From contig JAKAOM010000002.1 in the NCBI GenBank assembly GCA_021812145.1, positions 13,687 to 77,686 of the forward strand: a stretch of 64,000 bases of DNA, written 5' to 3'. Source of the stretch: Candidatus Micrarchaeota archaeon. GTDB lineage: Archaea; Micrarchaeota; Micrarchaeia; Norongarragalinales; UBA8480. The translations under genes were made by a program, and so were the position numbers. Every line of letters begins with the position of its first letter. Within the stretch, counting starts at the first letter, position 1. Shown piece by piece: positions 26,229-58,376 of this stretch. Under the pieces are notes generated by a model, which was given only the letters and a program-made list of their open reading frames with translations, had not been told where the DNA came from and searched no databases.

Positions 26229-27721
<1,493 letters not shown>

Positions 27722-27786
27722 AATTTTTATAATCTCGTTTTCTGCCTTCTTAAATAAAATTTTCTTGAACGCTACTCCTTTTTTGT

Positions 27787-27879
27787 GGGCTCGTAGCGCA
27801 GCTGGTAGCGCGCTTGCTTTGCAAGCAAGAGGCCGCGGGTTCAAAAAAATTTATTTTTTTGAGAATCCCGCCGAGTCCA
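27787..27879 (+). tRNA. tRNA-Ala (anticodon TGC) in the 16S-23S spacer, with a ~20-nt intron in the T-loop
   Basis: GGGCTCG TA GCGC AGCTGGTA GCGC G CTTGC TTTGCAA GCAAG AGGCC GCGGG [27 nt: TTCAAAAAAATTTATTTTTTTGAGAAT] CCCGC CGAGTCC A. G3:U70 is present. A 7-nt T-loop plus a 20-nt insert is required. The insert contains the self-complementary AAAAAAA-TTTA-TTTTTTT. Confidence 0.8.
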
Positions 27880-27983
27880 CTTTTTTCGTGGGGTTTACAA
27901 GCAAACCTTCCCTTCTGGGAAGTAAATTCTTGTCTAACCGACTAGGTTGATTTGGAATGAGACCGTTTTGTAGTTAATTTTTT

Positions 27984-30914
27984 AAGAAAAATGTATAAGC
28001 CGTTCAGAGGATGGTTAGGCTTGTGTTGCGATGAAGGGCGTGGCAAGCTGCGAAAAGTCCCGGGTAGGAGCATGCATCCGCTAAACCGGGAATTCCCGAA
28101 TTGTTTCGAAAGAAACGCAGACCCGCTGAATTGAAATATCTTAGTAAGCGGAGGAAGAGAAGCCAACAGGGATTCTGCGAGTATTGCGAGAGAAAGCAGA
28201 ATAGGATAAACCGAATATCTCCTGGCGACAGGGGAGAAGATGTGGGGTTTCGGAGGAGGGCATTAAACTTGAATTTCTGAGGGAGCGAAGTGGGCTGGAA
28301 AGCCCTGCGTTAAAAAGTGATAGCCTTGTAGTTTTTTCAGAAGTTGAAGTGCCTTTTTTCCAGAGTAGCGCTCTTTTATTTAGAGTGTGAAGACGCGAGT
28401 TATTAACTTGCAATCCTAAAATATAAGCACAAGACCGATAGCGTAGTTAGTACCGTGAGGGAAGACTGAAAAGCACCGCGAGAAGCGGAGTTAAAAAAGT
28501 ACCTGAAACTGGACGGCGACATTGAGATGCGGCGTGGAAGGAATGACGAAAGGACCGGCGTCGCATCATACTTCTAGAAGCAAGAGCCAAGGAGTTTAAG
28601 AGAGTGGCGAGTCAATGCGAAGCGAAAGCGAGAAACACGCAAGTTCGCAAGAACCCAGGTGTTGAAGTTGTAATTAGCTCCAAGCCACTAATTTAAGACC
28701 TGAAGCCGAAGCGAGCTATGCGCGGGCAAGGCGAAGCCAGTCGTAAGATTGGTGGAGGCCTGCAACCGTTTCTGGTCTATCCGATCGGGTGACCCGCGTT
28801 TAGGGGTGAAAGTCCATTCGAGCTTGGTATTAGCAGGTTCCCTCCGAAGTGTCTGTCAGGACAGCCTGGCTGGAGATCAGTGTTAGGTAGAGCGACCGAT
28901 TAAGAAGAATGGGGGGTAAAACCCTCACTTTTTTATCGAACTCCGAAGCTAGCACTATCGTAGAAGGCTGGAGTCGGGGGTGCGGGGTAAGCTCGTACTC
29001 CTGTAGGGGAACAACCCAAACTGTGGTTAAGGTCCCAAAGACGAGACTGAGTGTAAATTTAAGATGTTAGGCTTTTTAGACAGTGGAGAGGTAGGCTCAG
29101 AAGCAGCCATCCTTTAAACAACGCGTAACAGCGGATCCATCAAGAAGCCTTGCGTCGCAAACTGTCGGGACTAAGTCTCGCACCGATACCACGGAATTCT
29201 TCCCGTTGGGAAGGATTGGTAGGAGGGCGTGCTGTTAGATGAGAAGCTTGTTCGTGAGGACAAGTGGATTTGACAGCAATGAAAATCTTGGCGTTAGTAG
29301 CATCAAATTCAGGTGAGAATCCTGAACGCCGGAAGGGCACGGGTTTCTTGACAACGTTTGTCGGTCAAGAGTTAGTCGGTCCTAACGCTTTACGTATTAG
29401 TTAAGGCGGAAAGGGAAACACGTTAATATTCGCGTACCACGTGAAGCCGCGGTAACGCTTAAACAACATTTGACGGTTGAGGGAAGGTCCAGCGTTTGAA
29501 TAAAGCGTTGAACGAGATAGAGCGGGGAAGTCTCATTATGAGGAGCACTCGCTTAAGTAAGGAAAGCCCAGCAATGGGTTGGATTTTACCTTTGACCCAA
29601 TGAAAAGAATGTTGATAAATGGTTTTCACGTGACCGTACCTAGAACTAGAACAAGTGCCCCTAGCTGAAAAGGCTAAGGCGTGGCAGGAGAACCAAGGCA
29701 AGGGAAATCGGCAAGTTAGCCTCTTATCTTCGGTATAAGGGGTGCCTACATTCTTTCCTTTTACAGAAATGTTTCTGGGGGGTTTGTAGGTTTCAATAAC
29801 AAGGGGGCGTCGACTGTTTATCAAAAACATAGCTCTCTGCTAGATGGAAACGTTTTGTACAGAGGGCGACGCCTGCTCACTGGCAGCATCTGAAACAGGG
29901 TTCCAACCTTGTGAAGGACTGTTAAAGAGCGGGACTAACTCTGAGTCTCTTAAGGTAGCGTAATACCTCGCCGTTTAACTGACGGCTCGCATGAATGGCG
30001 TAACGAGCGTCCCACTGTCCCTGTCTTGGACCTGGCGAACTCACTTCTCGGTGAATATGCCGAGGATTTTTAGGGGGAAATGAAGACCCCGTCGAGCTTA
30101 ACTACAGTCTGCGGTTGAATCGCGGTTTGAAATGCAAAGCGTAAGCAGGAGCCGTTACAACGCATCTTTTGGGGTGCGTTTAGGCAAAAGTGTGACACTG
30201 CTCTTTTTAGACTTCGATTCTTACCTCTTTTTGAGGGACAGCTGCTGATGGGTAGTTTGACTGGGGTGGTACGCCTTCGATAAAAAAACAAAGGCGCCTT
30301 AAGGTCAACTCATCAAGGTTAGAAATCTTGAGTAGAGGGTTAAAAACAAATGTTGGCCTGACTGTGACTTTAATAAAATAGGTCGCAGATGCGAAAGCAG
30401 GGTTTAACGAACAAACACGCTCTTTTAATAGGAGCTGTTTCTGTCAAACAAGCTACCACGGGGGTAACCGGCTTGTCATGTGTGAGAGTTCACATCGACC
30501 ACATGGTTTGGTACATCGCGGTCGGCTCGCGTTATCCTGGCGGTGCAGGAGCCGCCAAGGGTTGGGTTGTCCATCCATTAAAAACGCACGCTAGTTGGGT
30601 TCAGAACGTCGCGAGACAGTTCGGTGACATCTCCTAAAAGTGCATTGCTTTTTGAGGGAAAGGTTTTCCTAGTACGAGAGGAATGGAAAACCGGCGCCTC
30701 TAGTCATGCTGTTGTCTTACAAGGCACGCAGCGTAGCCACGCGCCACGCGGATAAGTCCTGAAAGCATCTAAGGACGAAGCCGCACCCAAAACGAAAAAG
30801 CTTAGACTGCTCGTAGTATACGAGTTTGATAGAGTTGAAGTGTAAACCGCAAGCCCGCAAGGGCGAGCGGCGAGCTAACAACTACTAAAAGTCGTTCCTT
30901 CAATATTTTCTCTT
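27984..30914 (+). rRNA. 23S rRNA (archaeal); ends approximate (+/- ~20 nt)
   Basis: 5' region GAGGATGGTTAGGCTTGTGTTGCGATGAAGGGCGTGGCAAGCTGCGAAAAG. Conserved blocks such as GAAAGCATCTAAGGACGAAGC and GAGCTAAC lie near the 3' end. Putative helix 1 pairs 27984-27993 with 30905-30914. The outer processing stem pairs 27959-27982 with 30951-30976. Confidence 0.88.
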
Positions 30915-31732: not shown

Positions 31733-32239
31733 ATGGAGTTGGGAGTGGATTTCAAAACAGTGGGTTGGGTTTTGATTGTCATTGGAATTGCATTAATAGG
31801 CTTCGCTATTGTTAACAATTATTTAAACTCTTTGGTGATTCCGTATTTATCTCCCCAGATTTGTACTCAGCACTGCAATACTCTAACGCTTGAGAACTAT
31901 GTTGTTTTTGTTTTGATCGCTATCAGTCTTGGCTTGGGAATATATCTAGTGTTTTTTTACAAGCCTAAGGGGGTAAAAGAAGAAAAGGAATCGTCAGCGC
32001 AGCCAATTCAGGGAAGTGTTACAAAGCCTAGGATAAACCTCAATTCTCTTGCGCCTGACGAAAGAAAAATAATTGAAGTAATAACTGAAGGGGGTGGAGT
32101 CCTGTTCCAAAGTGATATTGTTGAAAAAACGGGTTTTCCTAAGGCTAAAGTGAGTAGGATTCTCGACCGTTTGGAAGCCAGAGAAGTGGTTGAGAGAAGA
32201 AGGAGAGGCATGACAAACGCTATAATGATCAAGAAATGA
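31733..32239 (+). CDS. Membrane-associated winged-helix regulator (COG2512-like)
   Basis: Two N-terminal TM helices, then LAPDERKIIEVITEGGGVLFQSDIVEKTGFPKAKVSRILDRLEAREVVERRRRGMTN. The TATA lies about 27 nt upstream of the ATG, so the transcript is possibly leaderless. Confidence 0.65.
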   Translation: MELGVDFKTVGWVLIVIGIALIGFAIVNNYLNSLVIPYLSPQICTQHCNTLTLENYVVFVLIAISLGLGIYLVFFYKPKGVKEEKESSAQPIQGSVTKPRINLNSLAPDERKIIEVITEGGGVLFQSDIVEKTGFPKAKVSRILDRLEAREVVERRRRGMTNAIMIKK

Positions 32240-32241
32240 GT

Positions 32242-32664
32242 TTATTTTAATAACAGTCCAGCAAGCTCTTCTGTAGTCCAGCATTTTATTCTTGAACCTC
32301 TCAAATGTTTGTCTCTGCTCCAAAGGTCGGCCCCTACAGCCAGAGCGCATGCTACGTAGGGCTCGTCTTTTAAATCGGTTGTTAGGTGCTTTGCCGCCTC
32401 CTTATATGGCAGCAGTTCAGTGATTTCAACAAGCTTTATTTTATTCAAAAGTAGTTGCGAAAGTCTGGCTGCTTGGTTCGTTTCTATCTTTGAGCGTTCA
32501 ACCAGCATTGGAAAATATTTCTTGAATTCTTCAATCAAAAATTCAGGGAAGTATAGCTCCAACTCCCTGTCCAGAAGTATTTCTCTTGTTTTTCCCTTTT
32601 TCAGAAAGGCTGAAAACAATACGTTAGCATCAACCACCAGCTTCACTTTTCCACCTTCTTGCAA
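32242..32664 (-). CDS. PIN-domain toxin (VapC-like)
   Basis: KLVVDANVLFSAFLKKGKTREILL..., later acidic residues, and C-terminal ...LWSRDKHL. It overlaps the upstream antitoxin-like ORF by 35 nt. Confidence 0.75.
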   Translation of the reverse strand: MQEGGKVKLVVDANVLFSAFLKKGKTREILLDRELELYFPEFLIEEFKKYFPMLVERSKIETNQAARLSQLLLNKIKLVEITELLPYKEAAKHLTTDLKDEPYVACALAVGADLWSRDKHLRGSRIKCWTTEELAGLLLK

Positions 32665-32863
32665 CTCCCTTGTCCACCGACATGGCTAGCTCTTCCACGT
32701 CCCTTTCTGTCAGATTGCTTTTTGACGCTATTCTCTCAGCCTCCTCCATCTCATCGATTTGCTGTTTTATTATGCTTCTAACAACCTCAGACCACTTCAT
32801 ATCTTTGTGCTGATTCATCCTTGCTTTCAGGTATGGAGGTATCGATAAAGTTAAACTTACTAT
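32630..32863 (-). CDS. RHH-like antitoxin; conserved N-terminus implies initiation at ATA 32863 (track ORF starts at internal ATG 32818)
   Basis: The frame is open from 32869. IVSLTLSIPPYLKARMNQHKDMKWSEVVRSII aligns residue for residue with the paralog MAHITLSLPEFVYREMKRHPEVKWSEVARQSI (57725..). ATA aligns with the paralog ATG, and GGTGA lies 6 nt upstream of it. Confidence 0.6.
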   Translation of the reverse strand: MVSLTLSIPPYLKARMNQHKDMKWSEVVRSIIKQQIDEMEEAERIASKSNLTERDVEELAMSVDKGVARRWKSEAGG

Positions 32864-32981
32864 AAACGTTCACCAACGTAATAATAACGTTAAAAAAATA
32901 AAAGCCTTTCGGATGGCTCGCCAGCCAAAATCCAGAGGAGGGTTCTGCATTATTTTAACGCCTTTTGTTTGATTTGCTCCA

Positions 32982-33035
32982 TGAAACCTGTTTCAACCCT
33001 GCCTTTGAAACCAGTTTCGCACTTTTGTTTATAAA
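32982..33035. promoter_or_regulatory. Two 14-bp palindromes TGAAAC-NN-GTTTCR followed by a TATA-like box
   Basis: TGAAACCTGTTTCA at 32982-32995 and TGAAACCAGTTTCG at 33006-33019, then TTTATAAAT at 33027-33035. A third copy lies at 37206-37219. Confidence 0.5.
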
Positions 33036-33841
33036 TGGTTTTTTCCCAGCTACATCCGGTGATTTTAAAAAAAATGAAAAATTCAACGATTGCGTACCTC
33101 CTGATTGGAGTGGTTGGAGCGCTTCTGATCTTGAACGGGTATTTCATGTTTATGATTAAACCCGCTCATAATTCAGAGGGTCAGGTTTACACACAAAGCC
33201 CTGCAGGTCAAAGCCAACAACAACCTCAGGCTAGCTTTCCAGTAAGTCTTGCAAGTGGTTTGGCTCAACTTCAGAGCGACACTCAATATATTAATATAAG
33301 CAATTACACCAGCGTGACAGAGATTGAAGGAAAAGTTTTCGTTTCAGGAACTCCTTTTTATGGCTCTAAGCTCGGCGTTTCATTCAACGACGCTGCCGAC
33401 GCTGCAAACACTCTTGCAAATCTTGACAATTCAATACCTACAAACAGTCTTACTCAAGACCAGCTTCATAGGTATATACGCATTGGAACAAATATTGCTT
33501 GTTTTTATTGTTGCGGCGCAACCACGCTTGTTGATAATAACGGCAATCCGGCGTGTTCATGCAACCATTCAATGGCTATAAGAGGGTTGGCGAAGTGGCT
33601 TATTATAAACACAAACATGACAAATGACCAGATTCTGCTGGAGTTAAACAAGTGGAAAGCTTTATTTTTTCCAGGACCAACGCTAAAAACAGTCAGCTCC
33701 CTCGCAGGGGTTAATAATGGAAGCGTGGAGGTTTTCTGGCTTGGAAGCCCCTCGAACATTCCTCAAGGTTTGATAAACGCTCTCAGGTCTCCTGGAGCTT
33801 CTACTAGCGGGCTGCCAGCTCAGATAGGCGGGTGCAGTTGA
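33035..33841 (+). CDS. Membrane-anchored extracytoplasmic protein with CC...CxCNH cysteine motif and C-terminal ...QIGGCS tail (likely start ATG 33074)
   Basis: MKNSTIAYLLIGVVGALLILNGYFMFMI (TM), preceded by GGTGA 13 nt upstream of 33074. It contains IACFYCCGATTLVDNNGNPACSCNHSMAIRGLAKWL and is a paralog of 37335..38693. Confidence 0.7.
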   Translation: MVFSQLHPVILKKMKNSTIAYLLIGVVGALLILNGYFMFMIKPAHNSEGQVYTQSPAGQSQQQPQASFPVSLASGLAQLQSDTQYINISNYTSVTEIEGKVFVSGTPFYGSKLGVSFNDAADAANTLANLDNSIPTNSLTQDQLHRYIRIGTNIACFYCCGATTLVDNNGNPACSCNHSMAIRGLAKWLIINTNMTNDQILLELNKWKALFFPGPTLKTVSSLAGVNNGSVEVFWLGSPSNIPQGLINALRSPGASTSGLPAQIGGCS

Positions 33842-33903
33842 AAAGAGGTGAACAAATAAGAAAATAAGTGAAATTTTAAAAAAATAAAAGGTGAATTTGA
33901 AAA

Positions 33904-34236
33904 ATGAAAGGAAGTGGTTTTATCATGCTCAGCATGATTGGTTTCTTGTCAGCAATGGCGGGAATGATGGGTTATTTTACGCAGGGCTTTAACTCTGCGA
34001 ACGCGACGTCTGCGAACGCTAGTTTAAGGGGTTTAAGCACAATGGCAGGGGTGATGGAAGGAAGCTACCAAAACATAACTTCAGCATGCACAAGCATAAT
34101 GAAGTCTTACGGTATAAACGGAACTTCGTTGAACGCAATGGAGGGAATGATGCAGAACGACGTGGAAGGCATGATGGACGGGCATTACCAGAATCAAAAC
34201 GGTTATACTGGAATGATGGGAGGCTTAAACAGGTGA
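33904..34236 (+). CDS. Met-rich small membrane/secreted protein (candidate Cu(I)-binding)
   Basis: 16 of 110 residues are Met by my count, in motifs AMAGMMG, TMAGVMEG, AMEGMMQ, EGMMDGH and TGMMGG. The N-terminus is hydrophobic. GGTGA lies 10 nt upstream. Confidence 0.6.
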   Translation: MKGSGFIMLSMIGFLSAMAGMMGYFTQGFNSANATSANASLRGLSTMAGVMEGSYQNITSACTSIMKSYGINGTSLNAMEGMMQNDVEGMMDGHYQNQNGYTGMMGGLNR

Positions 34237-34245
34237 TTTTGAAAA

Positions 34246-34473
34246 ATGGAAGTCAGCAATGAAAATAAAACAGGAATACCAAAAAAGTACGTGTACGTTT
34301 TGGCAGTGGTTGTCGTAGCGCTTGGATTGTTCCTAACGCTTAACGCCTACTCATTCTTTTGGAGGTCAACACCACAAAATTCAGAATATTCTACAGCTCA
34401 ATACGCTCAAAGCAGCAATTCAACCATAGCTACTGGAGGGGTTATTCCATCGCAGGTTGGCGGTTGCAATTAA
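34246..34473 (+). CDS. Small single-pass membrane protein ending ...SQVGGCN
   Basis: KK-flanked TM YVYVLAVVVVALGLFLTLNAYSFFW with the C-terminal tail predicted outside. The tail is homologous to that of 33035..33841. Confidence 0.5.
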   Translation: MEVSNENKTGIPKKYVYVLAVVVVALGLFLTLNAYSFFWRSTPQNSEYSTAQYAQSSNSTIATGGVIPSQVGGCN

Positions 34474-34490
34474 TATTTCAGGTGGCCCAT

Positions 34491-35981
34491 TTGAATAAAT
34501 TATTTTTTATTTTTTTCTTTTTTGTCTTCGTAATAGGCGCCATCAACGCCTGCAATGGGGTTGTGGCCAGCGCGGTTCAAAATCCCGCCGCACTCAGCAT
34601 TGGCAAGGCGGTTGACTCGCAGACAGGATGGAATACCGACTCGTACAACAACACTTTATGGATAGATAACAACAGCAACCTGCTTCTTGCATACAACAAT
34701 TTAAAAATACAGCCCGGCCTGGCTGAAGGAATCGCTGAAAGTTTTGCCAAAAAATTCAACTCCACTCCAATGTTTTTCGGTTTGGAGTACGAGCATGACA
34801 GGTTCGTGTACGTTTTTCGTGTTTTAACCAACCAAACTTTCAATTATTTCATAGGAGTGCCGATCGTTTCAAGAGAATTCGCTTTTTTCATAGACGCTAT
34901 GACCGGGGATGTAATAAATTCCGACGGTTGCGGAATGGGGCCGGGAACCATACTGCAAAACTTCAACTCAAGCATGCAGCCTGTTGAAAACACAACGCTA
35001 TTTCAATTCTCAGGGCAGATTATTCCAGAATCAGGAGACGCTATTTCAGAGAATTTTTCGGTAAAAAACCAAACAGTCCAGACAGAGATTTACAGCGACG
35101 GAAATAGCCTTTACTTTAACACGTCAACTCCCTTCAATTGGACGGCAGTTCTGTTTTCTGACACTCCTGTTGAGGAAATGGTTTCAGGATTTAAAAAAGC
35201 GATTATATACAACAAAAGCGCAGGGAACGTTTCAATCTACTCAATAAACCCAAGCCACATGAGCGTTGATTTTCAAAACCCAAAGCAGGTGCAAAATCAA
35301 ATTCAAGGTTCAAGCTTCAACTTCTCAATTTCGCTGAGCGTTATGAATCTTAGCAGCGGAAAGCCTTTCTCAATAACAATTCTAGGGGGGAATGGACAGC
35401 CAAACATTTATTCCCAGTCCGCAACAAATTCAATGCCCTTATCCTCAAACAATTCAATTACTTACGGGGTTTACGCTTCTTTTCCAAGTGTTTTCTGGCT
35501 TGGTTCCAAACAGGAGATACCTGTAACGCGGCAGTACTCCCTCCCTCTTCACCTTCTTTCAAGCAATGACAACGTTTACGGAAGCATGATTAACATAACT
35601 GCTTTCCAATGGGGGTACACTCCGGACACAATCACTGTAAGGCAGGGTGATAATGTAACTCTGTATTTGACAAGCAACGACGTTACTCATGGATTTCAGC
35701 TTGACGCTTTTGGAATAAGCGCGGTAATAACTCCCGGCAAGATAACAACGGTTAATTTCATAGCAGGCGCGCCTGGAACCTACACTTTTTACTGCAGCGT
35801 TTTCTGCGGAAGCGGGCACACCACTATGAAAGGAACTCTCATAGTGCTGCCAAGCGATAACTCAACGACGGTTGGAAGTGGAAACACCAACTTCTTCAGT
35901 TTTTTCAACGTAATGCTAATGCTTGGTTTCGTGTTTGCGACAGGATTGCTTTTCGTTATGATCAAATCCGGCGGCAGGTGA
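34491..35981 (+). CDS. CuA-type cupredoxin (COX2-like) protein with PepSY-like N-terminal region and C-terminal TM anchor
   Basis: The C-terminal domain FQWGYTPDTITVRQGDNVTLYLTSNDVTHGF...YTFYCSVFCGSGHTTMKGTLIV carries the full CuA ligand pattern H...CxxxCxxxHxxM (nt 35793-35828). The preferred start is TTG 34491 (GGTGG 5 nt upstream; signal-like NKLFFIFFFFVFVIGAINAC). The track start 34359 overlaps the previous gene. Confidence 0.75.
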   Translation: MNKLFFIFFFFVFVIGAINACNGVVASAVQNPAALSIGKAVDSQTGWNTDSYNNTLWIDNNSNLLLAYNNLKIQPGLAEGIAESFAKKFNSTPMFFGLEYEHDRFVYVFRVLTNQTFNYFIGVPIVSREFAFFIDAMTGDVINSDGCGMGPGTILQNFNSSMQPVENTTLFQFSGQIIPESGDAISENFSVKNQTVQTEIYSDGNSLYFNTSTPFNWTAVLFSDTPVEEMVSGFKKAIIYNKSAGNVSIYSINPSHMSVDFQNPKQVQNQIQGSSFNFSISLSVMNLSSGKPFSITILGGNGQPNIYSQSATNSMPLSSNNSITYGVYASFPSVFWLGSKQEIPVTRQYSLPLHLLSSNDNVYGSMINITAFQWGYTPDTITVRQGDNVTLYLTSNDVTHGFQLDAFGISAVITPGKITTVNFIAGAPGTYTFYCSVFCGSGHTTMKGTLIVLPSDNSTTVGSGNTNFFSFFNVMLMLGFVFATGLLFVMIKSGGR

Positions 35982-35987
35982 AAAATT

Positions 35988-37208
35988 GTGTTCGATTTTA
36001 TGAAATATCCATTTGTTAAAAGGATTGCAAAAAACAAGTACTACCCTTTAGCGTTCCAGGTTTTAGGATTGGTTGTTTTTATCGCTTTGATAGCCGACGC
36101 GTTCATAGGTAATCAAAACCCTGCTTTCAACATTGCTACGAACATTCTCTGGGTTTGGTGGTGGTTTTTCCTTCTTTTGACAATACTGGTGTTCGGAAGA
36201 TTCTGGTGCTCAGTATGCCCTTTTGGAGCAGAAGGGGATATTGTTCAAAGATTTTTCAAAGGTCAGAGAAAATGGCCTTCCTTTCTTAAGAACCTCTGGA
36301 TTGTTAACATATTCTTTATATTATTCATATGGGTGGACGATGTTCTCGGAATAGCTAACAATCCGTTCCAGACAGGAATTTTCCTTTTGTTAATAAGCTT
36401 TGGGGCGCTGCTAGTCGGATTGTTTTTTGAGAGAAGAACGTTCTGCAGGTACGTATGCCCTTTGAACGGGTTTATAGGTTTCAACAGCATGAGCTCGTTT
36501 TTTGAATTAAGAAGCAACAATAGGGAAACGTGCATAAACCACAAAGAAAAAGAATGCTTCAACGGAGGTTCTAACAGCAAGCCGTGCCCAATGTTCGAGT
36601 ATGTAGGGGGGATGAAAGACAATCTTTTCTGCATCCAGTGCATGGAATGCGCAAAAGGCTGTCCAAAAAACAATGTCGGTTTCGGTTTCAGAAGCTTCGC
36701 GTCAGACTTGTACTCAAACAACCGAAAGACAATGGAATTCGCTTCAAGCGCTTTGATAATAACCGCTCTAAGCACAGTTATTCTTTTCTTCTTTCACCTA
36801 CAACTTCCGCTGCCTCACATAGAAAGCCTCTCGATTTTATTGATTTTTTCAATAGCATTCCTATTCGCAATATTCTCGCTGACCGTTTTTGCAATATCAA
36901 GAATTGAAAAAATAAATTTCAAAAACGTTTTCTCTTCATACGCTTTCTCGCTCATCCCGCTTGGCCTTCTAACGCAAATCGGTGAAGCTTCAAATTACGC
37001 CTTGAGCAAAATAAGTTTTGTAACAAACATTGGTCACTCCCAAACTGCTTTGATTGAAATATTCATCATATTCGCAGGCTTCGTGGCTAGCTTTTTCGCA
37101 GGATACAAAATAAACGAGCGTGAAAATCACTCGTTCACAAGTTTTATCCTTATAGTACTGCTGCTTTTCTTGATAACAAGCATGATTTTGTACCCTCTAA
37201 CCACTTGA
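35988..37208 (+). CDS. Integral-membrane polyferredoxin (NapH/NosR/CcoG-like 4Fe-4S protein)
   Basis: Membrane-proximal motifs FGRFWCSVCPFG and RRTFCRYVCPLNG, ferredoxin motif CIQCMECAKGCP, additional Cys (CINHKEKEC...KPCP), and about 8 TM helices. Confidence 0.75.
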   Translation: MFDFMKYPFVKRIAKNKYYPLAFQVLGLVVFIALIADAFIGNQNPAFNIATNILWVWWWFFLLLTILVFGRFWCSVCPFGAEGDIVQRFFKGQRKWPSFLKNLWIVNIFFILFIWVDDVLGIANNPFQTGIFLLLISFGALLVGLFFERRTFCRYVCPLNGFIGFNSMSSFFELRSNNRETCINHKEKECFNGGSNSKPCPMFEYVGGMKDNLFCIQCMECAKGCPKNNVGFGFRSFASDLYSNNRKTMEFASSALIITALSTVILFFFHLQLPLPHIESLSILLIFSIAFLFAIFSLTVFAISRIEKINFKNVFSSYAFSLIPLGLLTQIGEASNYALSKISFVTNIGHSQTALIEIFIIFAGFVASFFAGYKINERENHSFTSFILIVLLLFLITSMILYPLTT

Positions 37209-37234
37209 AACTGGTTTCACACTGCCATTTAAAA
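37206..37234. promoter_or_regulatory. Third TGAAAC-NN-GTTTCA palindrome plus TATA-like box upstream of 37335..38693
   Basis: TGAAACTGGTTTCA at 37206-37219 overlaps the stop of the polyferredoxin gene and is followed by CACTGCCATTTAAAAG. The architecture parallels 33006-33035. Confidence 0.45.
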
Positions 37235-37334
37235 GCGATTTAATTCACAAATCAATGAAAATGTTTGAAATTAAATTTGGTCTAAAAAAACCAGATTTTT
37301 AAGGTTTAAAAAAATAAAAGGTGAATTTTATAAT

Positions 37335-38693
37335 ATGAAGCAAGAAATAAATAAAAAAGATAGTGAAAAAAACAAAAATCAAAATGAAGGTGAGAAAAAT
37401 TCAAACATTAGATACTTGGGCTTTTCAAAAGAACAATTAATTCTAGTCCTGGCTTCGTCGCTTATAATAGGTTTCCTGGCTGGATTTAATATATTCAGGC
37501 TGACACTGCCTCAACCACAATCAGCCTATAACGTTAGCGCCGGGCTGAGCTCTTCTGATCAGGCTGCGCTTCAGAATCAGATTCAAAGTGTTCTAAGCCC
37601 TGCATTGACTTCGCAAGGAGGAAGCCTGGCGGTGAGCGTGAACGGCGAGCAAGCACCAGTAGCAAACCTAAGCGTGACAATCAACGGTTCCACGCAATCC
37701 ATTCCTTCGTTTGTTTATAATAATGAATTGTTTCTAGCAACGCAGGGAATACCGCTTTCATCTTCATCCACCGCGTCTAACGCGCAACAACAAACCCTTC
37801 CTCCTTTATTCAACAACCCACCTAAAACAAACACGGTAAATGTCAATCAGTTGGAGGGCGAGGTTATTCCAGCGCAGGGCTATGTTCTACCTGTAAAGTG
37901 GGGCAAGTCTGCTAAAGAGCTTGTGGACAGCGGAGCGTTAAACATTACCGCTTTGTCTTCAATACTTCAACAGTCGGGACAGCCTTTGACAGCAGAAGAG
38001 CTTCAGATTCTAAACGGGACAAGCGATGAAAACATAACAATAAACGCCAACAACACTCTTTTCGACCTTTACGTTTTATGGGGGGTTGGAATAAGCAACA
38101 ACAATTCAATAATCAACAGCGGACCGTTAATGCAGAACGGAAACCCAAACAACTTCGCAAGCACCGGAGGCTATCTTCCTTTAGGAAATCTAATGATAGG
38201 CCAGTTGAACATTATGAATTTGAGTTCTAACGAACAGACAATAGCAGAGCAGGTAGCGTTCAACTCTTACAGGCCTTGCTGTGATAATCCAACGGGATTC
38301 CCTGACTGTAATCACGGGGCTGCAGCCCTAGGCTTGATAGAAATAATGGCTTCGCAGGGAAATAGCCTTAACGCCACGTTTGAAGCGGTTAGGGACTTCA
38401 ACTCTTTCCAGTTCACTCAGCAATACATGGAAGAAGCGGTTTTCTTCGCCTCGCAGGGACAGGATTGGAATGCTGTTCCTGCAAGCACGGTTGTTAACTA
38501 CAACTTTTCAAGCGCGACAGGTTCAAGCTATGTTATGCAGTACATTCAAAAGTTTGGACTTGTTCAAAGCCAAGGCGCGTCTGGTTCAAGCGCCAGCTGC
38601 GGGGTTGGAGGGGCCGCCCAAAGCTCGAGTTCAAGCTGCGGAGTCGGAAGCGCTCCTGTACAGCAAACTCAAACCTCAAGCTGCGGGGTTTGA
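37335..38693 (+). CDS. Membrane-anchored extracytoplasmic protein with PCCD...CNH motif and triple SCGV(G) C-terminal tail
   Basis: TM LILVLASSLIIGFLAGFNIF. It contains YRPCCDNPTGFPDCNHGAAALGLIEIMASQG and ends ...SASCGVGGAAQSSSSSCGVGSAPVQQTQTSSCGV. Confidence 0.7.
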   Translation: MKQEINKKDSEKNKNQNEGEKNSNIRYLGFSKEQLILVLASSLIIGFLAGFNIFRLTLPQPQSAYNVSAGLSSSDQAALQNQIQSVLSPALTSQGGSLAVSVNGEQAPVANLSVTINGSTQSIPSFVYNNELFLATQGIPLSSSSTASNAQQQTLPPLFNNPPKTNTVNVNQLEGEVIPAQGYVLPVKWGKSAKELVDSGALNITALSSILQQSGQPLTAEELQILNGTSDENITINANNTLFDLYVLWGVGISNNNSIINSGPLMQNGNPNNFASTGGYLPLGNLMIGQLNIMNLSSNEQTIAEQVAFNSYRPCCDNPTGFPDCNHGAAALGLIEIMASQGNSLNATFEAVRDFNSFQFTQQYMEEAVFFASQGQDWNAVPASTVVNYNFSSATGSSYVMQYIQKFGLVQSQGASGSSASCGVGGAAQSSSSSCGVGSAPVQQTQTSSCGV

Positions 38694-38749: not shown

Positions 38750-39001
38750 GTGATCGTGATGAACGTTATCCTAAGAGGAAGAATCAAGAATATTGTCAAG
38801 ACGATGGTTGATGAAGGCTACGCTAATTCCCAGTCAGAAGCAGTTAGACTTGCCATTGTTGATTTTGGAGAGCATTATATAAGTGAAGAAGAACTTGTCA
38901 ATAGCAAGCTTGACAGAATCGACGCTGAAATAAAAATCGGAAAAAGGAAACTGATAGGCGCTGAAGAAGCCCTTGGCAAATACACAAAATACTTAAAGTG
39001 A
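38750..39001 (+). CDS. RHH (CopG/RelB-like) antitoxin
   Basis: ...IKNIVKTMVDEGYANSQSEAVRLAIVDF... is typical of RHH antitoxins. It lies immediately upstream of a RelE-like ORF. Confidence 0.65.
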   Translation: MIVMNVILRGRIKNIVKTMVDEGYANSQSEAVRLAIVDFGEHYISEEELVNSKLDRIDAEIKIGKRKLIGAEEALGKYTKYLK

Positions 39002-39008
39002 GTTTAAC

Positions 39009-39269
39009 ATCTACCAGCCAAACTTTGACCAAGAATGGGGCAAATATTTCAACATGTTAGATAATACGATCAAGGAAAGAATTTCTAAAAAGATAAAAAA
39101 AATTCTTCAGTTTCCCGAGAAAAGACATTTTAAAACAGTTGGTTTTTTTGTTGACGAGGTCGGACAGTACAGGATAGTCTACAGGGTTTTCAAAGATTCA
39201 AAGGAGGTTAGATTCTATTTCGCAGGAGACCACAAGGATTATGAAAAATGGTACAAACAGTTTTTTTAA
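39009..39269 (+). CDS. RelE/ParE-like toxin (track ORF 39054..39269; frame open and RelE-like from 38997, possible ATC start 39009)
   Basis: GQYRIVYRVFKDSKEVRFYFAGDHKDY matches the RelE core. The upstream in-frame FNIYQPNFDQEWGKYFN resembles the RelE N-terminal strand and helix, but has no ATG, GTG or TTG. Confidence 0.55.
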   Translation: MYQPNFDQEWGKYFNMLDNTIKERISKKIKKILQFPEKRHFKTVGFFVDEVGQYRIVYRVFKDSKEVRFYFAGDHKDYEKWYKQFF

Positions 39270-39312: not shown

Positions 39313-39792
39313 ATGAAAAGAATTTACGGAGACATTGCAAGAATATCGTTCGGAGTGGTTGTGTTAGTTGACGCGTTCTTCAAATGGAACCCGGCATTCT
39401 TCTCCAACTTCACTTCTTTTATTTCCAGCGAGGGGCAACCCACATTCACGCTTGGCTGGTTTAACTTCTGGATTTCTTTGGTAAACCTGAATCCCCAATT
39501 TTTCGCACTGCTGGTTGCTTTGATTGAAACATTTTTGGCTTTAGCTTTAATACTTGGATTTGCAAGAAAATTATCGTATCTAGGCGGTGGATTGTTTTTC
39601 TTCATCGTTTGGAGCGTTGCCGAGGGTTTCGGAGGGCCGTACACCCTCATGTCAACCGATGTTGGAGCGGCTATAATCTACGTTTTCGTTCTAGCATGCC
39701 TTGCGCTTATAGATTATTACGCTGGCGAAAACAGTCTTTCGCTTGACAATTACCTGTCAAAAAAAATTAATTGGTGGCATTTCATAGGCTAA
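39313..39792 (+). CDS. DoxX-family-like membrane protein
   Basis: Four TM helices with a DoxX-like N-terminus (ARISFGVVVLVDAFFKW...). Confidence 0.5.
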   Translation: MKRIYGDIARISFGVVVLVDAFFKWNPAFFSNFTSFISSEGQPTFTLGWFNFWISLVNLNPQFFALLVALIETFLALALILGFARKLSYLGGGLFFFIVWSVAEGFGGPYTLMSTDVGAAIIYVFVLACLALIDYYAGENSLSLDNYLSKKINWWHFIG

Positions 39793-56812: not shown

Positions 56813-57679
56813 GTGTTAAAAGTTTTGTTTTTCAATTTTTTTATTATGAAACTCAAGGCCCGCGCTAAAATTAATCTGTTTCTTCATGTGATAGACCGGC
56901 TTCCAAACGGTTATCATGAAGTTGAAACTGTAATTCAGCCGCTTACCCTTAGCGACGTCGTTGACGTTAAGAGAATAAAAAAGGGAATCAGGATAAGCTC
57001 AAACGCGGACATTCCGCTTGATGAAAATAATTCTGCCTACAAGGCGGTTAAAAGGCTAGGGGTGGACGGGGTTAAGATTCACATTCACAAAAACATTCCG
57101 CTTGCAGGAGGTTTGGGTGGAAGCGCGGTGGACGCAGCGCCTGTGCTTAAAATTCTTGGAAGAAAACAATCATTGAAAAAGCTAGTTAAAATAGCAGGAA
57201 GCATAGCCGCTGACGCGCCTCAAGCGCTATTTGAAAAACCTTCCCTAGGAACAGGGATAGGAACGAACTTAAAAATCATACCTAAGCTTGGAAAAGAGTT
57301 TGTTTTGCTGACTGACGTGGTTGGAAGCAATTATTACAAAAACAAGAAGAAAAGCGCTTACCTTTACTCAAAAATCGACGGAATTAAAATAAAACATTCA
57401 AAAAAGCTTAATGAAATGAAAAAAGCACTAAAGAGAAAAAACTGGAAAGAGATTGGGAAGAGTTTTGAAAACGATTTTGAAAAAATCGTCTTCAAGGACT
57501 ATCCTAAAATCAAAAAATTAAAAGAAGAGCTTGTAAAAACAAACCCGGACGTCTGCGGAATGAGCGGAGCCGGAAGCGTGGTTTTCGCCTTGTACTCAAG
57601 AAAAAAAGATGCTTTTGAAGCTCAAAAGAAAATAAGGAAAAAGTTCAGGTGCTGGACTCTTTTGACAAGCACTATCTGA
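56813..57679 (+). CDS. ispE: 4-diphosphocytidyl-2-C-methyl-D-erythritol kinase (IspE-like GHMP kinase)
   Basis: MKLKARAKINLFLHVIDRLPNGYHEVETVIQPLTLSDVVDV is the IspE N-terminal signature. The GHMP motif is IHKNIPLAGGLGGSAVDAA and motif 3 is GMSGAGS. The likely start is ATG 56846. Confidence 0.75.
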   Translation: MLKVLFFNFFIMKLKARAKINLFLHVIDRLPNGYHEVETVIQPLTLSDVVDVKRIKKGIRISSNADIPLDENNSAYKAVKRLGVDGVKIHIHKNIPLAGGLGGSAVDAAPVLKILGRKQSLKKLVKIAGSIAADAPQALFEKPSLGTGIGTNLKIIPKLGKEFVLLTDVVGSNYYKNKKKSAYLYSKIDGIKIKHSKKLNEMKKALKRKNWKEIGKSFENDFEKIVFKDYPKIKKLKEELVKTNPDVCGMSGAGSVVFALYSRKKDAFEAQKKIRKKFRCWTLLTSTI

Positions 57680-58270: not shown

Positions 58271-58376
58271 CGGGCCTAGAGGGATTTTCGATTTTGTTTT
58301 TCGAACCCTCGATCTACAGCTTTCTTCCAAGAACGGTTAGAAGGCTGTCGCCTTATCCAGACTAGGCTATAGGCCC
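58271..58376 (-). tRNA. tRNA-Arg (anticodon TCT) with two introns: 16 nt in the anticodon loop and 15 nt in the T-loop
   Basis: Minus strand reads GGGCCTA TA GCCT AGTCTGGATA AGGC G ACAGC CTTCTAA[+16 nt CCGTTCTTGGAAGAAA] GCTGT AGATC GAGGG [22 nt TTCGAAAAACAAAATCGAAAAT] CCCTC TAGGCCC G. All stems pair perfectly. 75 nt of mature sequence plus 31 nt of inserts gives 106 nt. Confidence 0.8.

What the first reader, a model, noticed from the sequence alone, without database searches (positions are those of the whole stretch)
32982..38693. Operator-flanked cluster: Cys-motif anchored proteins + Met-rich protein + orphan CuA cupredoxin + NapH/CcoG-like polyferredoxin (candidate undescribed extracytoplasmic copper/redox module)
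Six co-oriented genes lie between copies of the same palindromic operator. They are: (A) 33074-33841, a TM anchor plus CFYCCG..(x)..CSCNH domain; (B) 33904-34236, a protein with about 15% Met (MxGMM-type motifs); (C) 34246-34473, a 75-aa single-pass protein; (D) 34491-35981, a PepSY-like region plus a cupredoxin with the complete binuclear CuA ligand set (H..CSVFCGSGHTTM) and a C-terminal anchor; (E) 35988-37208, a polytopic 4Fe-4S protein with two CxxxCP motifs and CxxCxxCxxxCP; (F) 37335-38693, a larger paralog of A (PCCDNPTGFPDCNHG). CuA domains normally belong to heme-copper oxidase subunit II or NosZ. No catalytic partner (CoxA or the NosZ propeller) is present in this window. NapH/NosR/CcoG-type polyferredoxins move electrons across the membrane, and CcoG is a cupric reductase. 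Met-rich proteins are classical Cu(I) binders. Taken together this looks like a self-contained electron-transfer or copper-handling unit on the cell surface of an archaeon that otherwise appears metabolically reduced. I do not recognise the A/F cysteine domain as a characterised family.
Basis: partly seen in the sequence, partly recalled or inferred. Interest (0 to 1): 0.72.

Follow-up and report, generated by a model that had tools for sequence, protein, structure and literature searches.

The report
Archaeal surface copper-handling gene cluster
A small symbiotic-type archaeon carries a tightly regulated set of surface proteins, including two uncharacterised cysteine-rich families with no solved-structure relative, a copper electron-transfer protein and an iron-sulfur membrane protein, and comparison with hundreds of related genomes links the set to copper handling outside the cell.

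Summary

- **D** has a cupredoxin with all CuA ligand positions matching Thermus ba3 subunit II.
- **E** is a Fer4_5 polyferredoxin.
- **A and F** are remote homologues. Both families lack any Pfam, NCBIfam or PDB match, and their confident AlphaFold models have no PDB fold relative.

The cluster is not unique. It is a lineage-specific version of a widespread DPANN cassette, parts of which also occur in CPR bacteria.

- The A family occurs in 363 species-representative genomes.
- Its neighbours are Cu(I)-type P1B ATPases, CopG/DUF411, CupA-like cupredoxins, CopY/BlaR-like regulators and thioredoxins.
- E homologues are fused to cupredoxins, in either domain order, and lie directly downstream of a CopG gene; most longer contigs also carry an A-family gene just upstream.
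- The palindrome TGAAAC-NN-GTTTCA is conserved just upstream of A-family genes across archaeal phyla (38 sites, about 1 expected). It usually lies beside a membrane-anchored wHTH regulator with an outward Cys pair.

Copper binding, the direction of electron flow and the regulator-operator pairing are all inferred. No experiment exists.

The parts
31733..32239 (+). Reg: a membrane-anchored one-component regulator with two TM helices, an outward loop bearing a Cys pair (ICTQHC), and a cytoplasmic wHTH domain
   Evidence: DUF7343 at 54.4 bits (cut-off 27.6) and MarR_2. TM segments at residues 3-36 and 50-78. Homologues lie immediately upstream of A-family genes in 46 of 75 loci. The second loop Cys is 97% conserved.
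32982..32995 (.). Operator copy O1 (ATGAAACCTGTTTCAA)
   Evidence: Exact palindrome. The same position is conserved in L006, L105 and L106.
33006..33019 (.). Operator copy O2 (TTGAAACCAGTTTCGC), 56 nt before the A start codon, followed by the TATA-like TTTATAAAT
   Evidence: 26 of 38 exact sites in related loci lie within 150 nt upstream of an A-family gene.
33074..33841 (+). A: an N-terminally anchored surface protein with a CxxCC...CxCxH domain and a C-terminal ...PAQIGGCS tail
   Evidence: The family has 234 representative clusters and 363 genomic loci. Invariant residues are C143, C146, C147, C161, C163 and H165, and C254 is near-invariant. No Pfam match. The model core has pLDDT above 90 and no PDB fold match.
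33904..34236 (+). B: an anchored Met-rich protein (16 Met in 110 aa; AMAGMMG, AMEGMMQ and GMMGG repeats)
   Evidence: An ortholog is found only in the close lineage. Unrelated Met-rich proteins occur in 7 A-family loci.
34246..34473 (+). C: a single-pass mini-protein ending ...IPSQVGGCN
   Evidence: Many 50-120 aa single-pass proteins ending ...MVGGC accompany A-family genes.
34491..35981 (+). D: signal/anchor, a roughly 350-aa sequon-rich stalk, a CuA-type cupredoxin, and a C-terminal TM anchor
   Evidence: There are 18 NxS/T sequons. The N-terminal 365 residues contain only 3 His and 2 Cys.
35988..37208 (+). E: a polytopic Fer4_5 polyferredoxin of the broad NapH/NosR/CcoG kind. All 11 of its Cys are conserved in cupredoxin-fused homologues.
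   Evidence: Fusions are shown.
37206..37219 (.). Operator copy O3 (TTGAAACTGGTTTCAC), overlapping the E stop codon and upstream of F, followed by the TATA-like TTTAAAAG
   Evidence: The same E/F-junction position is seen in L006, L105 and L106.
37335..38693 (+). F: N-terminal anchor, a lineage-specific N-domain, a conserved core (FASTGGY...SYRPCCDNPTGFPDCNHG) and a Ser-rich tail with three SCGV(G) repeats
   Evidence: The search returned 114 clusters at E <= 0.001, none with a name; apart from one rhodanese fusion none has a Pfam domain, and a few share only F's N-terminal domain. Invariant residues are R149, P150, C151, C152, D160, C161 and H163, with a near-invariant C-terminal Cys. The model has pLDDT 88.6 and pTM 0.86, with no PDB fold match.
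39313..39792 (+). DoxX-family membrane protein, a probable accessory member
   Evidence: DoxX at 25.6 bits (cut-off 23.6). It is syntenic in L006 and L106. CuA-type cupredoxin plus DoxX/DoxD gene pairs occur in L019 and L050.

Best explanation
This is a regulated module that handles copper on the outer face of the membrane.

**Proposed mechanism**

- **Sensing.** A transmembrane one-component regulator (31733-32239) senses copper or thiol state through an outward-facing Cys pair. Through its cytoplasmic wHTH domain it binds the TGAAAC-NN-GTTTCA palindromes that abut the promoters of A-E and of F.
- **Copper binding.** A, C and F are membrane-anchored surface proteins. A and F carry homologous Cys/His sites (A: CxxCC...CxCxH; F: CC...DCNH). 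All three end in flexible tails tipped by a Cys (...GGC). Together with Met-rich B they capture and pass on Cu(I) outside the cell.
- **Electron transfer.** E has cytoplasmic Fe-S clusters and D carries a surface CuA cupredoxin. Together they form an electron path across the membrane. I infer that it carries electrons outward to reduce Cu(II), or to keep the copper sites redox-poised. This would play a role like that of the cupric reductase CcoG, but on the outside of the membrane, alongside the copper-cluster protein CopG in related loci.

**What is shown**

- Gene content and homology.
- Conserved synteny.
- The conserved operator.
- The E-cupredoxin fusions.
- The statistical association with Cu(I) exporters, CopG, and CupA-like and CopY-like genes.

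**What is inferred**

- Copper as the ligand of A, B, C and F.
- The direction of electron flow.
- The regulator-operator pairing.
- Whether the outcome is detoxification or supply.
For: **Copper context of the F family**

- Four of five distinct distant loci carry a YHS/HMA P1B ATPase within a few genes. They also carry YHS/TRASH minis, ArsR, blue-copper proteins, or Penicillinase_R with M56.

**Copper context of the A family (80 loci; 75 with a called A gene were clustered)**

- Regulator in 46 of 75 loci.
- A membrane protein with a CopG-like N-terminus in 46 of 75.
- An HMA/ATPase cluster in 35 of 75.
- M48/M56 in 25 and a CopY/BlaI-like repressor in 23.
- DUF411 in 32 of 80.
- 18 of 23 neighbouring ATPases carry the full Cu(I) signature CPC + NX6YNX4P + MXXSS.
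- 16 cupredoxins carry the CupA-type C...CxMxM site (CupA ligands per PMC5646241 and PMC7558416).

**D-E coupling**

- Every E homologue whose relevant terminus lies on its contig is fused to a cupredoxin. Seven have it at the C-terminus and one (L089) has an N-terminal CuA-type domain.
- 10 of 15 E loci have DUF411 directly upstream, and five have an A-family gene within about 3 kb.

**Operator**

- Three exact copies in the window against 0.13 expected.
- 38 in 1.17 Mb of related loci plus the window against 1.1 expected, with 26 lying within 150 nt upstream of an A-family start.
- Three more in 62 kb of E-seeded loci.
- Positions are conserved in L006, L105 and L106.

**Other**

- The regulator's outer loop has a conserved Cys pair.
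- The sequon-rich ectodomains and the charge distribution around the anchors fit an outside location.
- CcoG is a cupric reductase with two [4Fe-4S] clusters, and CopG binds a Cu4 cluster through CxCC (PMC7558416).
Against: - No experiment exists for any member of the A or F families.
- The window itself has no CopA, no DUF411 and no CupA-like gene, so the copper link is by homologues' neighbourhoods only.
- E-type polyferredoxins are rare among A-family loci (1 of 80). The D/E part could therefore serve a different purpose from the A/F part.
- From general knowledge, a typical CuA potential (about +240 mV) is too high to reduce disulfides, and the real acceptor is unknown.
- The Cys/His sites of A and F could instead hold Zn or an Fe-S cluster, or form structural disulfides.
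- The thioredoxin, DsbA and DsbD-like neighbours fit a thiol-redox reading as well.
- Only 64 kb of a 224,829-bp contig was examined, so a partner enzyme elsewhere cannot be excluded.
Confidence: 0.6

Rival explanations
1. This is a general extracytoplasmic thiol-disulfide (oxidative folding or repair) system. A, C and F would be redox-active Cys proteins or their substrates, E-D would feed or drain electrons, and copper genes would be nearby only because copper damages thiols.
For: - Thioredoxin-fold proteins, DsbA/Thioredoxin_4, a DsbD_TM protein and a TlpA-like redoxin recur in the neighbourhoods.
- One F homologue is fused to rhodanese.
- Window-lineage proteins share F's N-domain but carry a CPFG motif that I read, untested, as thioredoxin-like.
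- The only, very weak, structural echo of F is the thiol-oxidoreductase CcmH.
Against: - The enrichment is specifically for Cu(I)-signature ATPases, CopG, CupA-like sites, CopY-like repressors and YHS/TRASH/HMA proteins.
- From general knowledge, cupredoxin potentials are too high to reduce disulfides.
- Met-rich proteins such as B have no role in disulfide chemistry.
Confidence: 0.15
2. This is a copper acquisition and cuproprotein-maturation pathway rather than a defence. The Cys and Met proteins would collect scarce Cu(I) and load it into D and other surface cupredoxins, acting as functional analogues of Sco/PCuAC.
For: - Cupredoxins (CuA, T1, SoxE-like) are frequent neighbours of A and F.
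- Nothing Sco- or PCuAC-like appeared among the gene products that I scanned.
- Terminal Cys tails resemble, from memory, the Cu hand-off tail of Ctr1.
Against: - The linked ATPases carry the Cu(I) P1B-1 signature with HMA or YHS domains, and CopY/BlaR-type regulators are nearby. I read both as typical of detoxification operons.
- CopG is linked to copper resistance (PMC7558416).
- No importer is present in the cluster.
Confidence: 0.2
3. This is a respiratory or electron-disposal branch. E-D (with DoxX) would be the terminal segment of an electron-transport chain, either feeding an external acceptor or serving as the CuA subunit of an oxidase or N2O reductase encoded elsewhere. A, B, C and F would be accessory.
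For: - D's cupredoxin is closest to ba3 oxidase subunit II and to the NosZ CuA domain.
- From general knowledge, NapH/NosH-type proteins supply electrons to NosZ in nos clusters.
- CuA-cupredoxin plus DoxX/DoxD pairs recur.
- Only 64 kb of the 225-kb contig was seen.
Against: - D fails the CoxB and NosZ family cut-offs (59.3 against 147.7; 68.9 against 625).
- Its architecture is stalk plus C-terminal anchor, not, as I recall it, the N-terminal helical hairpin of subunit II.
- Its N-domain has 3 His, where (from memory) a CuZ site needs 7.
- No subunit-I motif occurs in the window or in the 103 loci scanned (L001-L103).
- Micrarchaeota are reported to have only cytochrome bd-II (PMC5864196).
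- The module is under a dedicated operator shared with Cys-tail proteins and CopG.
Confidence: 0.1
4. The module targets another thiophilic metal (Hg, Ag, Cd, Zn) rather than copper.
For: - Cys-rich sites and CPC ATPases with HMA domains also serve Ag, and related ATPases serve Zn/Cd.
- ArsR and PadR-TRASH regulators occur nearby.
Against: - 18 of 23 ATPases have the complete P1B-1 Cu(I)/Ag(I) signature.
- No mercuric reductase appeared among the neighbour clusters that I annotated.
- CopG, cupredoxins and CupA-like sites are copper-specific partners.
Confidence: 0.07

Closest known systems
CcoG/FixG cupric reductase (Rhodobacter capsulatus)
   Same: Both are membrane-integral Fer4_5-type polyferredoxins with cytoplasmic [4Fe-4S] motifs, genetically tied to copper trafficking. 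CcoG reduces Cu(II) to Cu(I) (PMC7558416).
   Different: - E has no hit to any CcoG/FixG model or to an Ig-like C-domain.
- E works with, or in relatives is fused to, an extracytoplasmic cupredoxin, which implies delivery of electrons outside rather than cytoplasmic Cu reduction.
- It is found in archaea and candidate-phyla lineages, not next to cbb3 oxidase genes.
NapH / NosH / NosR electron-donor proteins
   Same: They share CxxxCP motifs plus ferredoxin-type clusters in a polytopic protein. From general knowledge, NosH and NosR support the CuA-containing NosZ, so the polyferredoxin-to-CuA logic is precedented.
   Different: - Scores are far below family cut-offs (NapH 23.3 against 213; NosR 19.3 against 1000).
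- There is no NapG/NapAB, no NosZ catalytic domain and no flavin domain.
- The CuA domain stands alone on a stalk.
CopG (DUF411) periplasmic copper-cluster protein
   Same: It is a direct neighbour of A-family genes (32 of 80 loci) and of E::cupredoxin genes (10 of 15 loci). CopG binds a Cu4 cluster through CxCC. A's CxxCC...CxCxH motif is chemically reminiscent of this.
   Different: - The window has no DUF411 gene.
- A and F are not DUF411 members and have a helical fold, not a thioredoxin-like fold.
Streptococcus pneumoniae cop operon (CopY-CupA-CopA)
   Same: - Related loci combine a CopY/BlaI-family repressor, a membrane-anchored cupredoxin with the CupA ligand pattern C...CxMxM, and a Cu(I) P1B ATPase.
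- CupA also reduces Cu(II) in vitro (PMC5646241).
   Different: - CupA traps copper at the cytoplasmic membrane after it has entered the cell and hands it to CopA (PMC7558416), whereas D is predicted to face outward.
- D has the canonical CuA set (2 Cys, 2 His, Met) rather than CxMxM.
- The window uses a different, membrane-embedded wHTH regulator and operator.
Heme-copper oxidase subunit II / NosZ CuA domain
   Same: The CuA ligand positions are identical, with E 1e-17 to the Thermus ba3 CuA domain.
   Different: - It is below the CoxB and NosZ cut-offs.
- No catalytic partner is nearby.
- It has a different membrane architecture.
- It is in an operon with, and in relatives fused to, a polyferredoxin.
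Scs (suppressor of copper sensitivity) and Sco/PCuAC systems (from memory, not tested here)
   Same: They are extracytoplasmic Cys-based proteins that bind Cu(I) and depend on a DsbD-like membrane reductant. This is the same general logic as the A/F proteins with CcdA-like and thioredoxin neighbours.
   Different: There is no sequence or fold relationship. A and F are not thioredoxin-fold proteins.

Membership tests
Cupredoxin / COX2 CuA domain (Pfam PF13473, PF00116) | Score above the Pfam gathering cut-off | tested here: met
   D residues 410-496 (540-aa frame): Cupredoxin_1 at 43.3 bits (cut-off 27); COX2 at 36.2 bits (cut-off 22).
Cupredoxin / COX2 CuA domain (Pfam PF13473, PF00116) | Binuclear CuA ligand set H...C-x3-C-x3-H-x2-M | tested here: met
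   D has THGF...CSVFCGSGHTTM. These residues align column for column with the Thermus ba3 CuA sequence. The Thermus ligand residue numbers come from my own knowledge.
Cytochrome c oxidase subunit II (CoxB, TIGR02866) | Whole-protein score above the curated cut-off | tested here: not met
   59.3 bits against a cut-off of 147.7. The match covers only the cupredoxin.
Cytochrome c oxidase subunit II (CoxB, TIGR02866) | N-terminal two-helix membrane hairpin and an adjacent subunit I gene | tested here: not met
   D has one N-terminal anchor, a roughly 350-aa stalk and a C-terminal anchor. No GHPEV-type subunit I motif occurs in the window or in the 103 loci scanned (L001-L103). The Pfam survey of the window found none.
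Nitrous-oxide reductase NosZ (TIGR04246, TIGR04244, L-NosZ NF052460) | Score above the cut-off, and a propeller domain with the multi-His CuZ site | tested here: not met
   68.9, 61.9 and 48.6 bits against cut-offs of 625, 625 and 700. Only the C-terminal CuA part aligns. The N-terminal 365 residues contain 3 His.
NapH/MauN quinol dehydrogenase ferredoxin subunit (TIGR02163) | Score above the curated cut-off | tested here: not met
   23.3 bits against a cut-off of 213.
Fer4_5 polyferredoxin superfamily (PF12801) | Fer4_5 repeats with C-x(2,3)-C-P next to TM helices, plus a ferredoxin-type CxxCxxCxxxCP motif | tested here: met
   45.5 bits (cut-off 22), two stretches. All 11 Cys of E are invariant in the three-sequence alignment with the close ortholog L006 and the cupredoxin-fused L060 homologue.
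CcoG/FixG cupric reductase | Match to a CcoG/FixG family model and a C-terminal Ig-like FixG_C domain | tested here: not met
   No CcoG/FixG or FixG_C family was listed for E in Pfam or NCBIfam at E <= 1. Cupric reductase activity cannot be tested here.
DUF411 / CopG | PF04214 match with a CxCC motif | tested here: not met
   No window ORF matches a DUF411 HMM built from neighbours. A family members show no Pfam hit. DUF411 is present only as a neighbour in related loci.
   Neither A nor F had any relevant Pfam family at E <= 1. None of 38 A-family members had one at E <= 0.01.
PepSY (PF03413) | Score above the cut-off in the D N-terminal region | tested here: not met
   12.2 bits against a cut-off of 24, E 0.24, no stretch passing.
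DUF7343 / MarR-type wHTH regulator | Score above the Pfam cut-off | tested here: met
   Product of 31733-32239: DUF7343 at 54.4 bits (cut-off 27.6) and MarR_2 at 36 bits (cut-off 27). DNA binding to the palindrome was not tested.
DoxX (PF07681) | Score above the Pfam cut-off | tested here: met
   Product of 39313-39792: 25.6 bits against a cut-off of 23.6.

The most novel reading that the evidence does not exclude
- **New copper-binding superfamily.** A and F would found a new superfamily of extracytoplasmic multinuclear Cu(I)-thiolate proteins. They have a fold absent from the PDB and a flexible tail ending in ...MVGGC that captures and hands over copper.
- **New electron conduit.** Together with CopG and a polyferredoxin-cupredoxin pair, they would constitute the first described trans-membrane cupric-reductase and copper-buffering machine of ultra-small archaea, with parts of it also in candidate-phyla bacteria.
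- **New regulator class.** In archaea the system would be switched by a new class of transmembrane one-component regulator that senses copper outside the cell through a Cys pair and binds TGAAAC-NN-GTTTCA.
Probability: 0.3. Interest if true: 0.8.

Novelty: new variant of a known kind. Interest (0 to 1): 0.66.

Why it matters
DPANN archaea and CPR bacteria make up a large share of microbial diversity, yet little is known about how these single-membrane, genome-reduced cells cope with metals. The following points would matter if the reading is right.

- **Two large uncharacterised families get a testable role.** The A family is found in 363 species-representative genomes. The F family comprises 114 clusters. 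Both now have defined invariant residues, confident structural models and a genomic context that points to copper.
- **A cis-element and its likely regulator are identified.** The element is conserved across archaeal phyla. This is rare for DPANN and could be tested directly by EMSA or reporter assays.
- **A new electron route is suggested.** The recurrent fusion of a NapH/CcoG-like polyferredoxin to a cupredoxin suggests a way to move electrons across a membrane to a copper site. This bears on the open question of how NapH/NosR-type proteins work.
- **CuA outside its usual enzymes.** A CuA domain used outside an oxidase or NosZ would add to the short list of stand-alone CuA-type proteins.

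Tried and rejected
- **BLASTP of A against F.** No alignment of the Cys region. Homology was recovered only with profiles.
- **Protein comparison on two alignments.** The tool failed. Global hhalign was uninformative. Local hhalign was used instead.
- **Word-indexed homologue search for A.** Only 4 close hits. The exhaustive profile search was needed.
- **The search for related loci with the full A alignment.** It was repeated with a trimmed core alignment.
- **Fold and sequence searches against the PDB.** Fold searches of the F and A models gave nothing below E 2.5. A 70-residue resemblance of F to CcmH (probability 0.25) is too weak to use. PDB sequence and profile searches for A, F and E gave nothing.
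- **Families considered and rejected.**
  - D as NosZ (including the 480-aa lactonase-type), as CoxB, or as carrying a PepSY domain.
  - E as an ortholog of NapH, NosR or CcoG.
  - A and F as PCYCGC or DUF411 members.
- **Literature.** A search for the MVGGC motif, and searches for DPANN or Micrarchaeota copper systems, found nothing relevant.
- **Walking the contig.** The right-end protein was not on record. The left flank held nothing relevant. I did not survey the remaining roughly 160 kb of the contig.
- **One-mismatch palindrome scan.** Not above chance (6 matches against 4.45 expected). Only the exact palindrome is informative.

Full report
**1. Setting**

The window is archaeal. It carries a 16S-23S rRNA operon at 26229-30907 and ordinary housekeeping genes: TFB, ribosomal proteins, thermosome, HisRS and ScpA. 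Homologues of its proteins come from genomes labelled Micrarchaeota or "Marsarchaeota". The window corresponds to about positions 61.6-125.6 kb of a 224,829-bp metagenomic contig. GC content across the cluster (0.40-0.43) matches the surroundings.

**2. The observation**

All six + strand ORFs exist.

- **D.** It matches Cupredoxin_1 and COX2 above the Pfam cut-offs. Its best solved relative is the CuA domain of Thermus ba3 oxidase subunit II (E 1e-17). His (THGF) and C-x3-C-x3-H-x2-M (CSVFCGSGHTTM) sit in the ligand columns.
- **D's N-terminal region.** These roughly 365 residues have 3 His and 2 Cys. The whole protein carries 18 N-x-S/T sequons. A second hydrophobic segment closes the protein. 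I read it as a glycosylated stalk, not a catalytic domain.
- **E.** It is a polytopic Fer4_5 protein with only weak similarity to NapH and NosR.
- **B, C and the anchors.** B is 14.5% Met. C is a 75-aa single-pass protein. A, B, C, D and F each begin with one hydrophobic anchor.
- **The palindrome.** GAAAC-NN-GTTTC occurs exactly three times in 64 kb against 0.13 expected. Two copies lie upstream of A. The third overlaps the stop codon of E, upstream of F. The cluster is therefore not flanked by operators. It appears to consist of two operator-preceded units, A-E and F.
- **PepSY.** This is not supported.

**3. The A and F families**

*F family.* A search with F returned 114 clusters at 90% identity. 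Sources include Micrarchaeota (ARMAN-1 among them), Aenigmarchaeota and the CPR group Nealsonbacteria. All are unnamed and, apart from one rhodanese fusion, lack Pfam domains.

- The conserved core is FASTGGY...SYRPCCDNPTxFPDCNHGAAALGLIELMASQG.
- Invariant residues are R, P, C, C, D, C and H.
- A near-invariant Cys lies three residues from the C-terminus (GGxCG[VA]).
- An AlphaFold model of the core is confident (pLDDT 88.6, pTM 0.86) and has no PDB fold relative (best E 3.4).

*A family.* A has only four close relatives by word search. An exhaustive profile search finds 234 representative clusters, and a genome scan finds 363 loci. These span:

- DPANN phyla: Micr-, Woese-, Aenigmat-, Nano-, Pace-, Iain- and Nanohaloarchaeota.
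- Hydrothermarchaeota.
- CPR bacteria: Parcu-, Magasanik- and Buchananbacteria.

The consensus is GxPxxYGxELGVSFD...CEYCCGA...ACGCAHSxAMRGLAKYL...KWKALFFPK. Invariant residues are C143, C146, C147, C161, C163 and H165, and the motif LPxMVGGC sits at the extreme C-terminus. There is no Pfam match, no PDB match and no PDB fold match for the model (core pLDDT above 90).

*Relationship between A and F.* They are remote homologues.

- Local hhalign aligns 163 columns, including CC...CNH and the terminal Cys (51% probability, E 1.5e-4).
- Each family HMM weakly hits members of the other family.
- Both models show the same helix, Cys-loop, three-helix pattern.

*Cys tails.* Protein C (...QVGGCN) belongs to a large set of 50-120-aa single-pass proteins ending ...MVGGC that accompany A genes. 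In the window only A, C and F carry such tails.

**4. Neighbourhoods**

*Distant F homologues* sit a few genes from YHS/HMA P1B ATPases in 4 of 5 distinct loci. Other neighbours are YHS/TRASH mini-proteins, an ArsR regulator, SoxE/plastocyanin-type cupredoxins, and Penicillinase_R with Peptidase_M56.

*A family.* I called genes in 80 loci and clustered everything within 6 kb of the 75 loci that had a called A gene. Cluster representatives were annotated with Pfam.

| Neighbour | Loci |
|---|---|
| Membrane wHTH regulator, the same family as 31733-32239 | 46 of 75 |
| Polytopic protein with a weakly DUF411-like N-terminus | 46 of 75 |
| HMA / P1B ATPase cluster | 35 of 75 |
| M48/M56 protease | 25 of 75 |
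| CopY/BlaI-like repressor | 23 of 75 |
| Double-thioredoxin protein | 20 of 75 |
| DsbA-like protein | 16 of 75 |
| DUF411/CopG (family HMM) | 32 of 80 |
| F family | 9 of 80 |

- 18 of 23 neighbouring ATPases carry the complete Cu(I) P1B-1 signature CPC / NX6YNX4P / MXXSS. The other five lack part of it, and at least some of those run into a locus end.
- A census found 26 cupredoxin-like ORFs in 22 loci: 16 with the CupA-type C...CxMxM pattern, 5 type-1, 3 CuA-type and 2 others. The CupA ligands C74, C111, M113 and M115 are taken from PMC5646241 and PMC7558416.

**5. The D-E pair**

- In a Pacearchaeota genome the E homologue is fused to a C-terminal cupredoxin (L060).
- An independent metagenome scan seeded with E returned 15 loci.
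- Every homologue whose relevant end is on its contig is fused to a cupredoxin. Seven have it at the C-terminus. One has an N-terminal CuA-type domain (CTQTCGNLHPFM, L089), next to DsbD_TM and a TlpA-like redoxin.
- Ten of the 15 loci have a DUF411/CopG gene immediately upstream (Pfam E 1e-21 to 1e-24 for the three tested).
- Five have an A-family gene plus MVGGC minis just before that.
- All 11 Cys of E are conserved in the fused form.
- Separate small CuA-type cupredoxins (CSVFCGQGHREM, CTVYCGEGHSSM, CHHYCGEGHSGM) occur in the same islands. Two of them are followed by a DoxX/DoxD gene. The window and its relatives keep a DoxX gene downstream.
- By hydropathy and the positive-inside rule, the Fe-S motifs of E face the cytoplasm. 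Five TM segments separate them from the fused cupredoxin, which places the cupredoxin outside. This is my reading of the sequences, not a computed topology.

**6. Regulation**

- The exact palindrome occurs 38 times in 1.17 Mb of the first 88 loci plus the window, against 1.1 expected. 26 of these sites lie within 150 nt upstream of an A-family start codon, often right after the stop of the regulator gene.
- Three further sites lie upstream of A genes in 62 kb of E-seeded loci, against 0.06 expected.
- None occurs in the loci whose titles name CPR bacterial groups.
- The three close relatives keep copies before A and at the end of E. In one of them an extra copy precedes F after an insertion.
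- In 39 regulators the outward loop between the two TM helices keeps a Cys pair. The second Cys is 97% conserved, usually as C-P. The window has ICTQHC.
- In the window each operator is followed about 10 nt later by a TATA-like box (TTTATAAAT, TTTAAAAG). Binding there would interfere with, or assist, TFB/TBP recruitment. The sign of regulation is unknown.

**7. Synteny**

Reg-A-B-C-D-E-F-DoxX is kept in four independent assemblies at 67-76% protein identity. Different toxin-antitoxin genes are inserted at different points: PIN in the window, PemK in L105. This argues that selection maintains the cluster as a unit.

**8. Interpretation**

The best-supported reading is a regulated copper-handling module on the outer face of the membrane.

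- Cys-tail proteins (A, C, F) and a Met-rich protein (B) act as Cu(I) binders.
- E and D form a trans-membrane electron path.

The logic is closest to three known systems:

- CcoG, a polyferredoxin cupric reductase.
- CopG, a Cys-bridged Cu4 cluster protein important for anaerobic copper resistance.
- The CopY-CupA-CopA operon (PMC7558416, PMC5646241).

E, A and F do not qualify as members of any of these families (see the membership tests).

I favour outward electron flow. From general knowledge, ferredoxin-type clusters are far more reducing than CuA, so the reverse direction is uphill. This step, the metal specificity, and the choice between detoxification and supply are all inferences.

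Rival readings remain open at lower probability: generic thiol-redox, cuproprotein maturation, a respiratory branch, and another thiophilic metal.

**9. Known or new**

The available libraries have no family model, structure or paper for A, F, the MVGGC tail, the operator, or the polyferredoxin-cupredoxin fusion. Micrarchaeota are reported to have cytochrome bd-II as their only terminal oxidase (PMC5864196), which is consistent with a CuA protein that has no oxidase. I class the finding as a new variant of a known kind of system (a metal-homeostasis operon), built largely from undescribed parts.

**10. Limits**

- Everything rests on sequence comparison and predicted structures.
- Neighbourhood counts were not normalised against a background.
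- My gene calls are simple longest-ORF calls.
- Model coordinates could not be inspected for Cys geometry.
- About 160 kb of the contig and the rest of the genome were not examined.

Noticed in passing
window 8486-9244 (+): A 252-aa protein with a clear GGDEF diguanylate-cyclase domain (89 bits) in an archaeal genome. To my knowledge c-di-GMP signalling is rare in archaea.
   Followed up: no
window 10516-16269 and 16279-17958 (+); also the 2556-aa gene just left of the window (L104 2138-9808): Giant surface proteins (1917 aa and 559 aa) built of Big_1, Big_2 and CarboxypepD_reg repeats. The region has a strongly negative GC skew (about -0.2), unlike its neighbours.
   Followed up: partly
window 32242-32818 (-) and 38750-39269 (+): Toxin-antitoxin pairs bracket the cluster: a PIN_2 toxin with a small upstream ORF, and an RHH-like ORF with a ParE-like toxin. 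Relatives carry different inserts at these joints (PemK in L105, none in L106). These junctions therefore appear to be insertion hot spots, while the copper genes stay fixed.
   Followed up: partly
window 32890-32904, 33876-33890, 37306-37320: The A-rich 15-mer TTAAAAAAATAAAAG occurs three times exactly. Two copies continue into the GGTGA ribosome-binding sites of B and F. The third lies about 90 nt upstream of the operator pair. Its role (promoter, terminator remnant or leader element) is unclear.
   Followed up: no
window 38588-38693 (C-terminus of F): In the window lineage the single C-terminal Cys tail of the F family is triplicated (SCGVG...SCGVG...SCGV). This is visible as a 3-copy DNA repeat.
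   Followed up: partly
window 50644-52500 (-): A full-length 1-deoxy-D-xylulose-5-phosphate synthase-like gene (DXP_synthase_N, E 4.5e-103) in an archaeon. Archaea normally use the mevalonate route, and a GHMP-kinase gene lies at 56813-57679.
   Followed up: no
window 5288-6865 (+): A PIF1-family helicase fused to a C-terminal WYL domain.
   Followed up: no
window 58271-58376 (-) and 27787-27843 (+): One tRNA match spans 106 nt and probably contains an intron. A short 57-nt tRNA-like match sits in the 16S-23S spacer.
   Followed up: no
L009-L088, e.g. L056 13580-14071 and L050 9962-10465: A recurrent, unannotated protein of about 165 aa ending ...DCCKE(W) occurs in 22 of 75 A-family loci. A 174-aa membrane protein with an HCPLC motif occurs in 21 loci. 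Neither has a Pfam match.
   Followed up: partly
P0081, P0089, P0100, P0101, P0105: Some F-family members carry an N-terminal polytopic extension with a conserved GCPVCG / ICPVC motif inside a TM helix. This suggests a membrane-embedded Cys site coupled to the F domain.
   Followed up: no
P0106, P0109, P0111-P0113: Proteins of about 400 aa share only F's lineage-specific N-terminal domain. They replace the Cys core with a domain carrying a CPFG motif that looks thioredoxin-like to me (not tested). One comes from the same source organism as the L006 relative (same locus-tag prefix).
   Followed up: no
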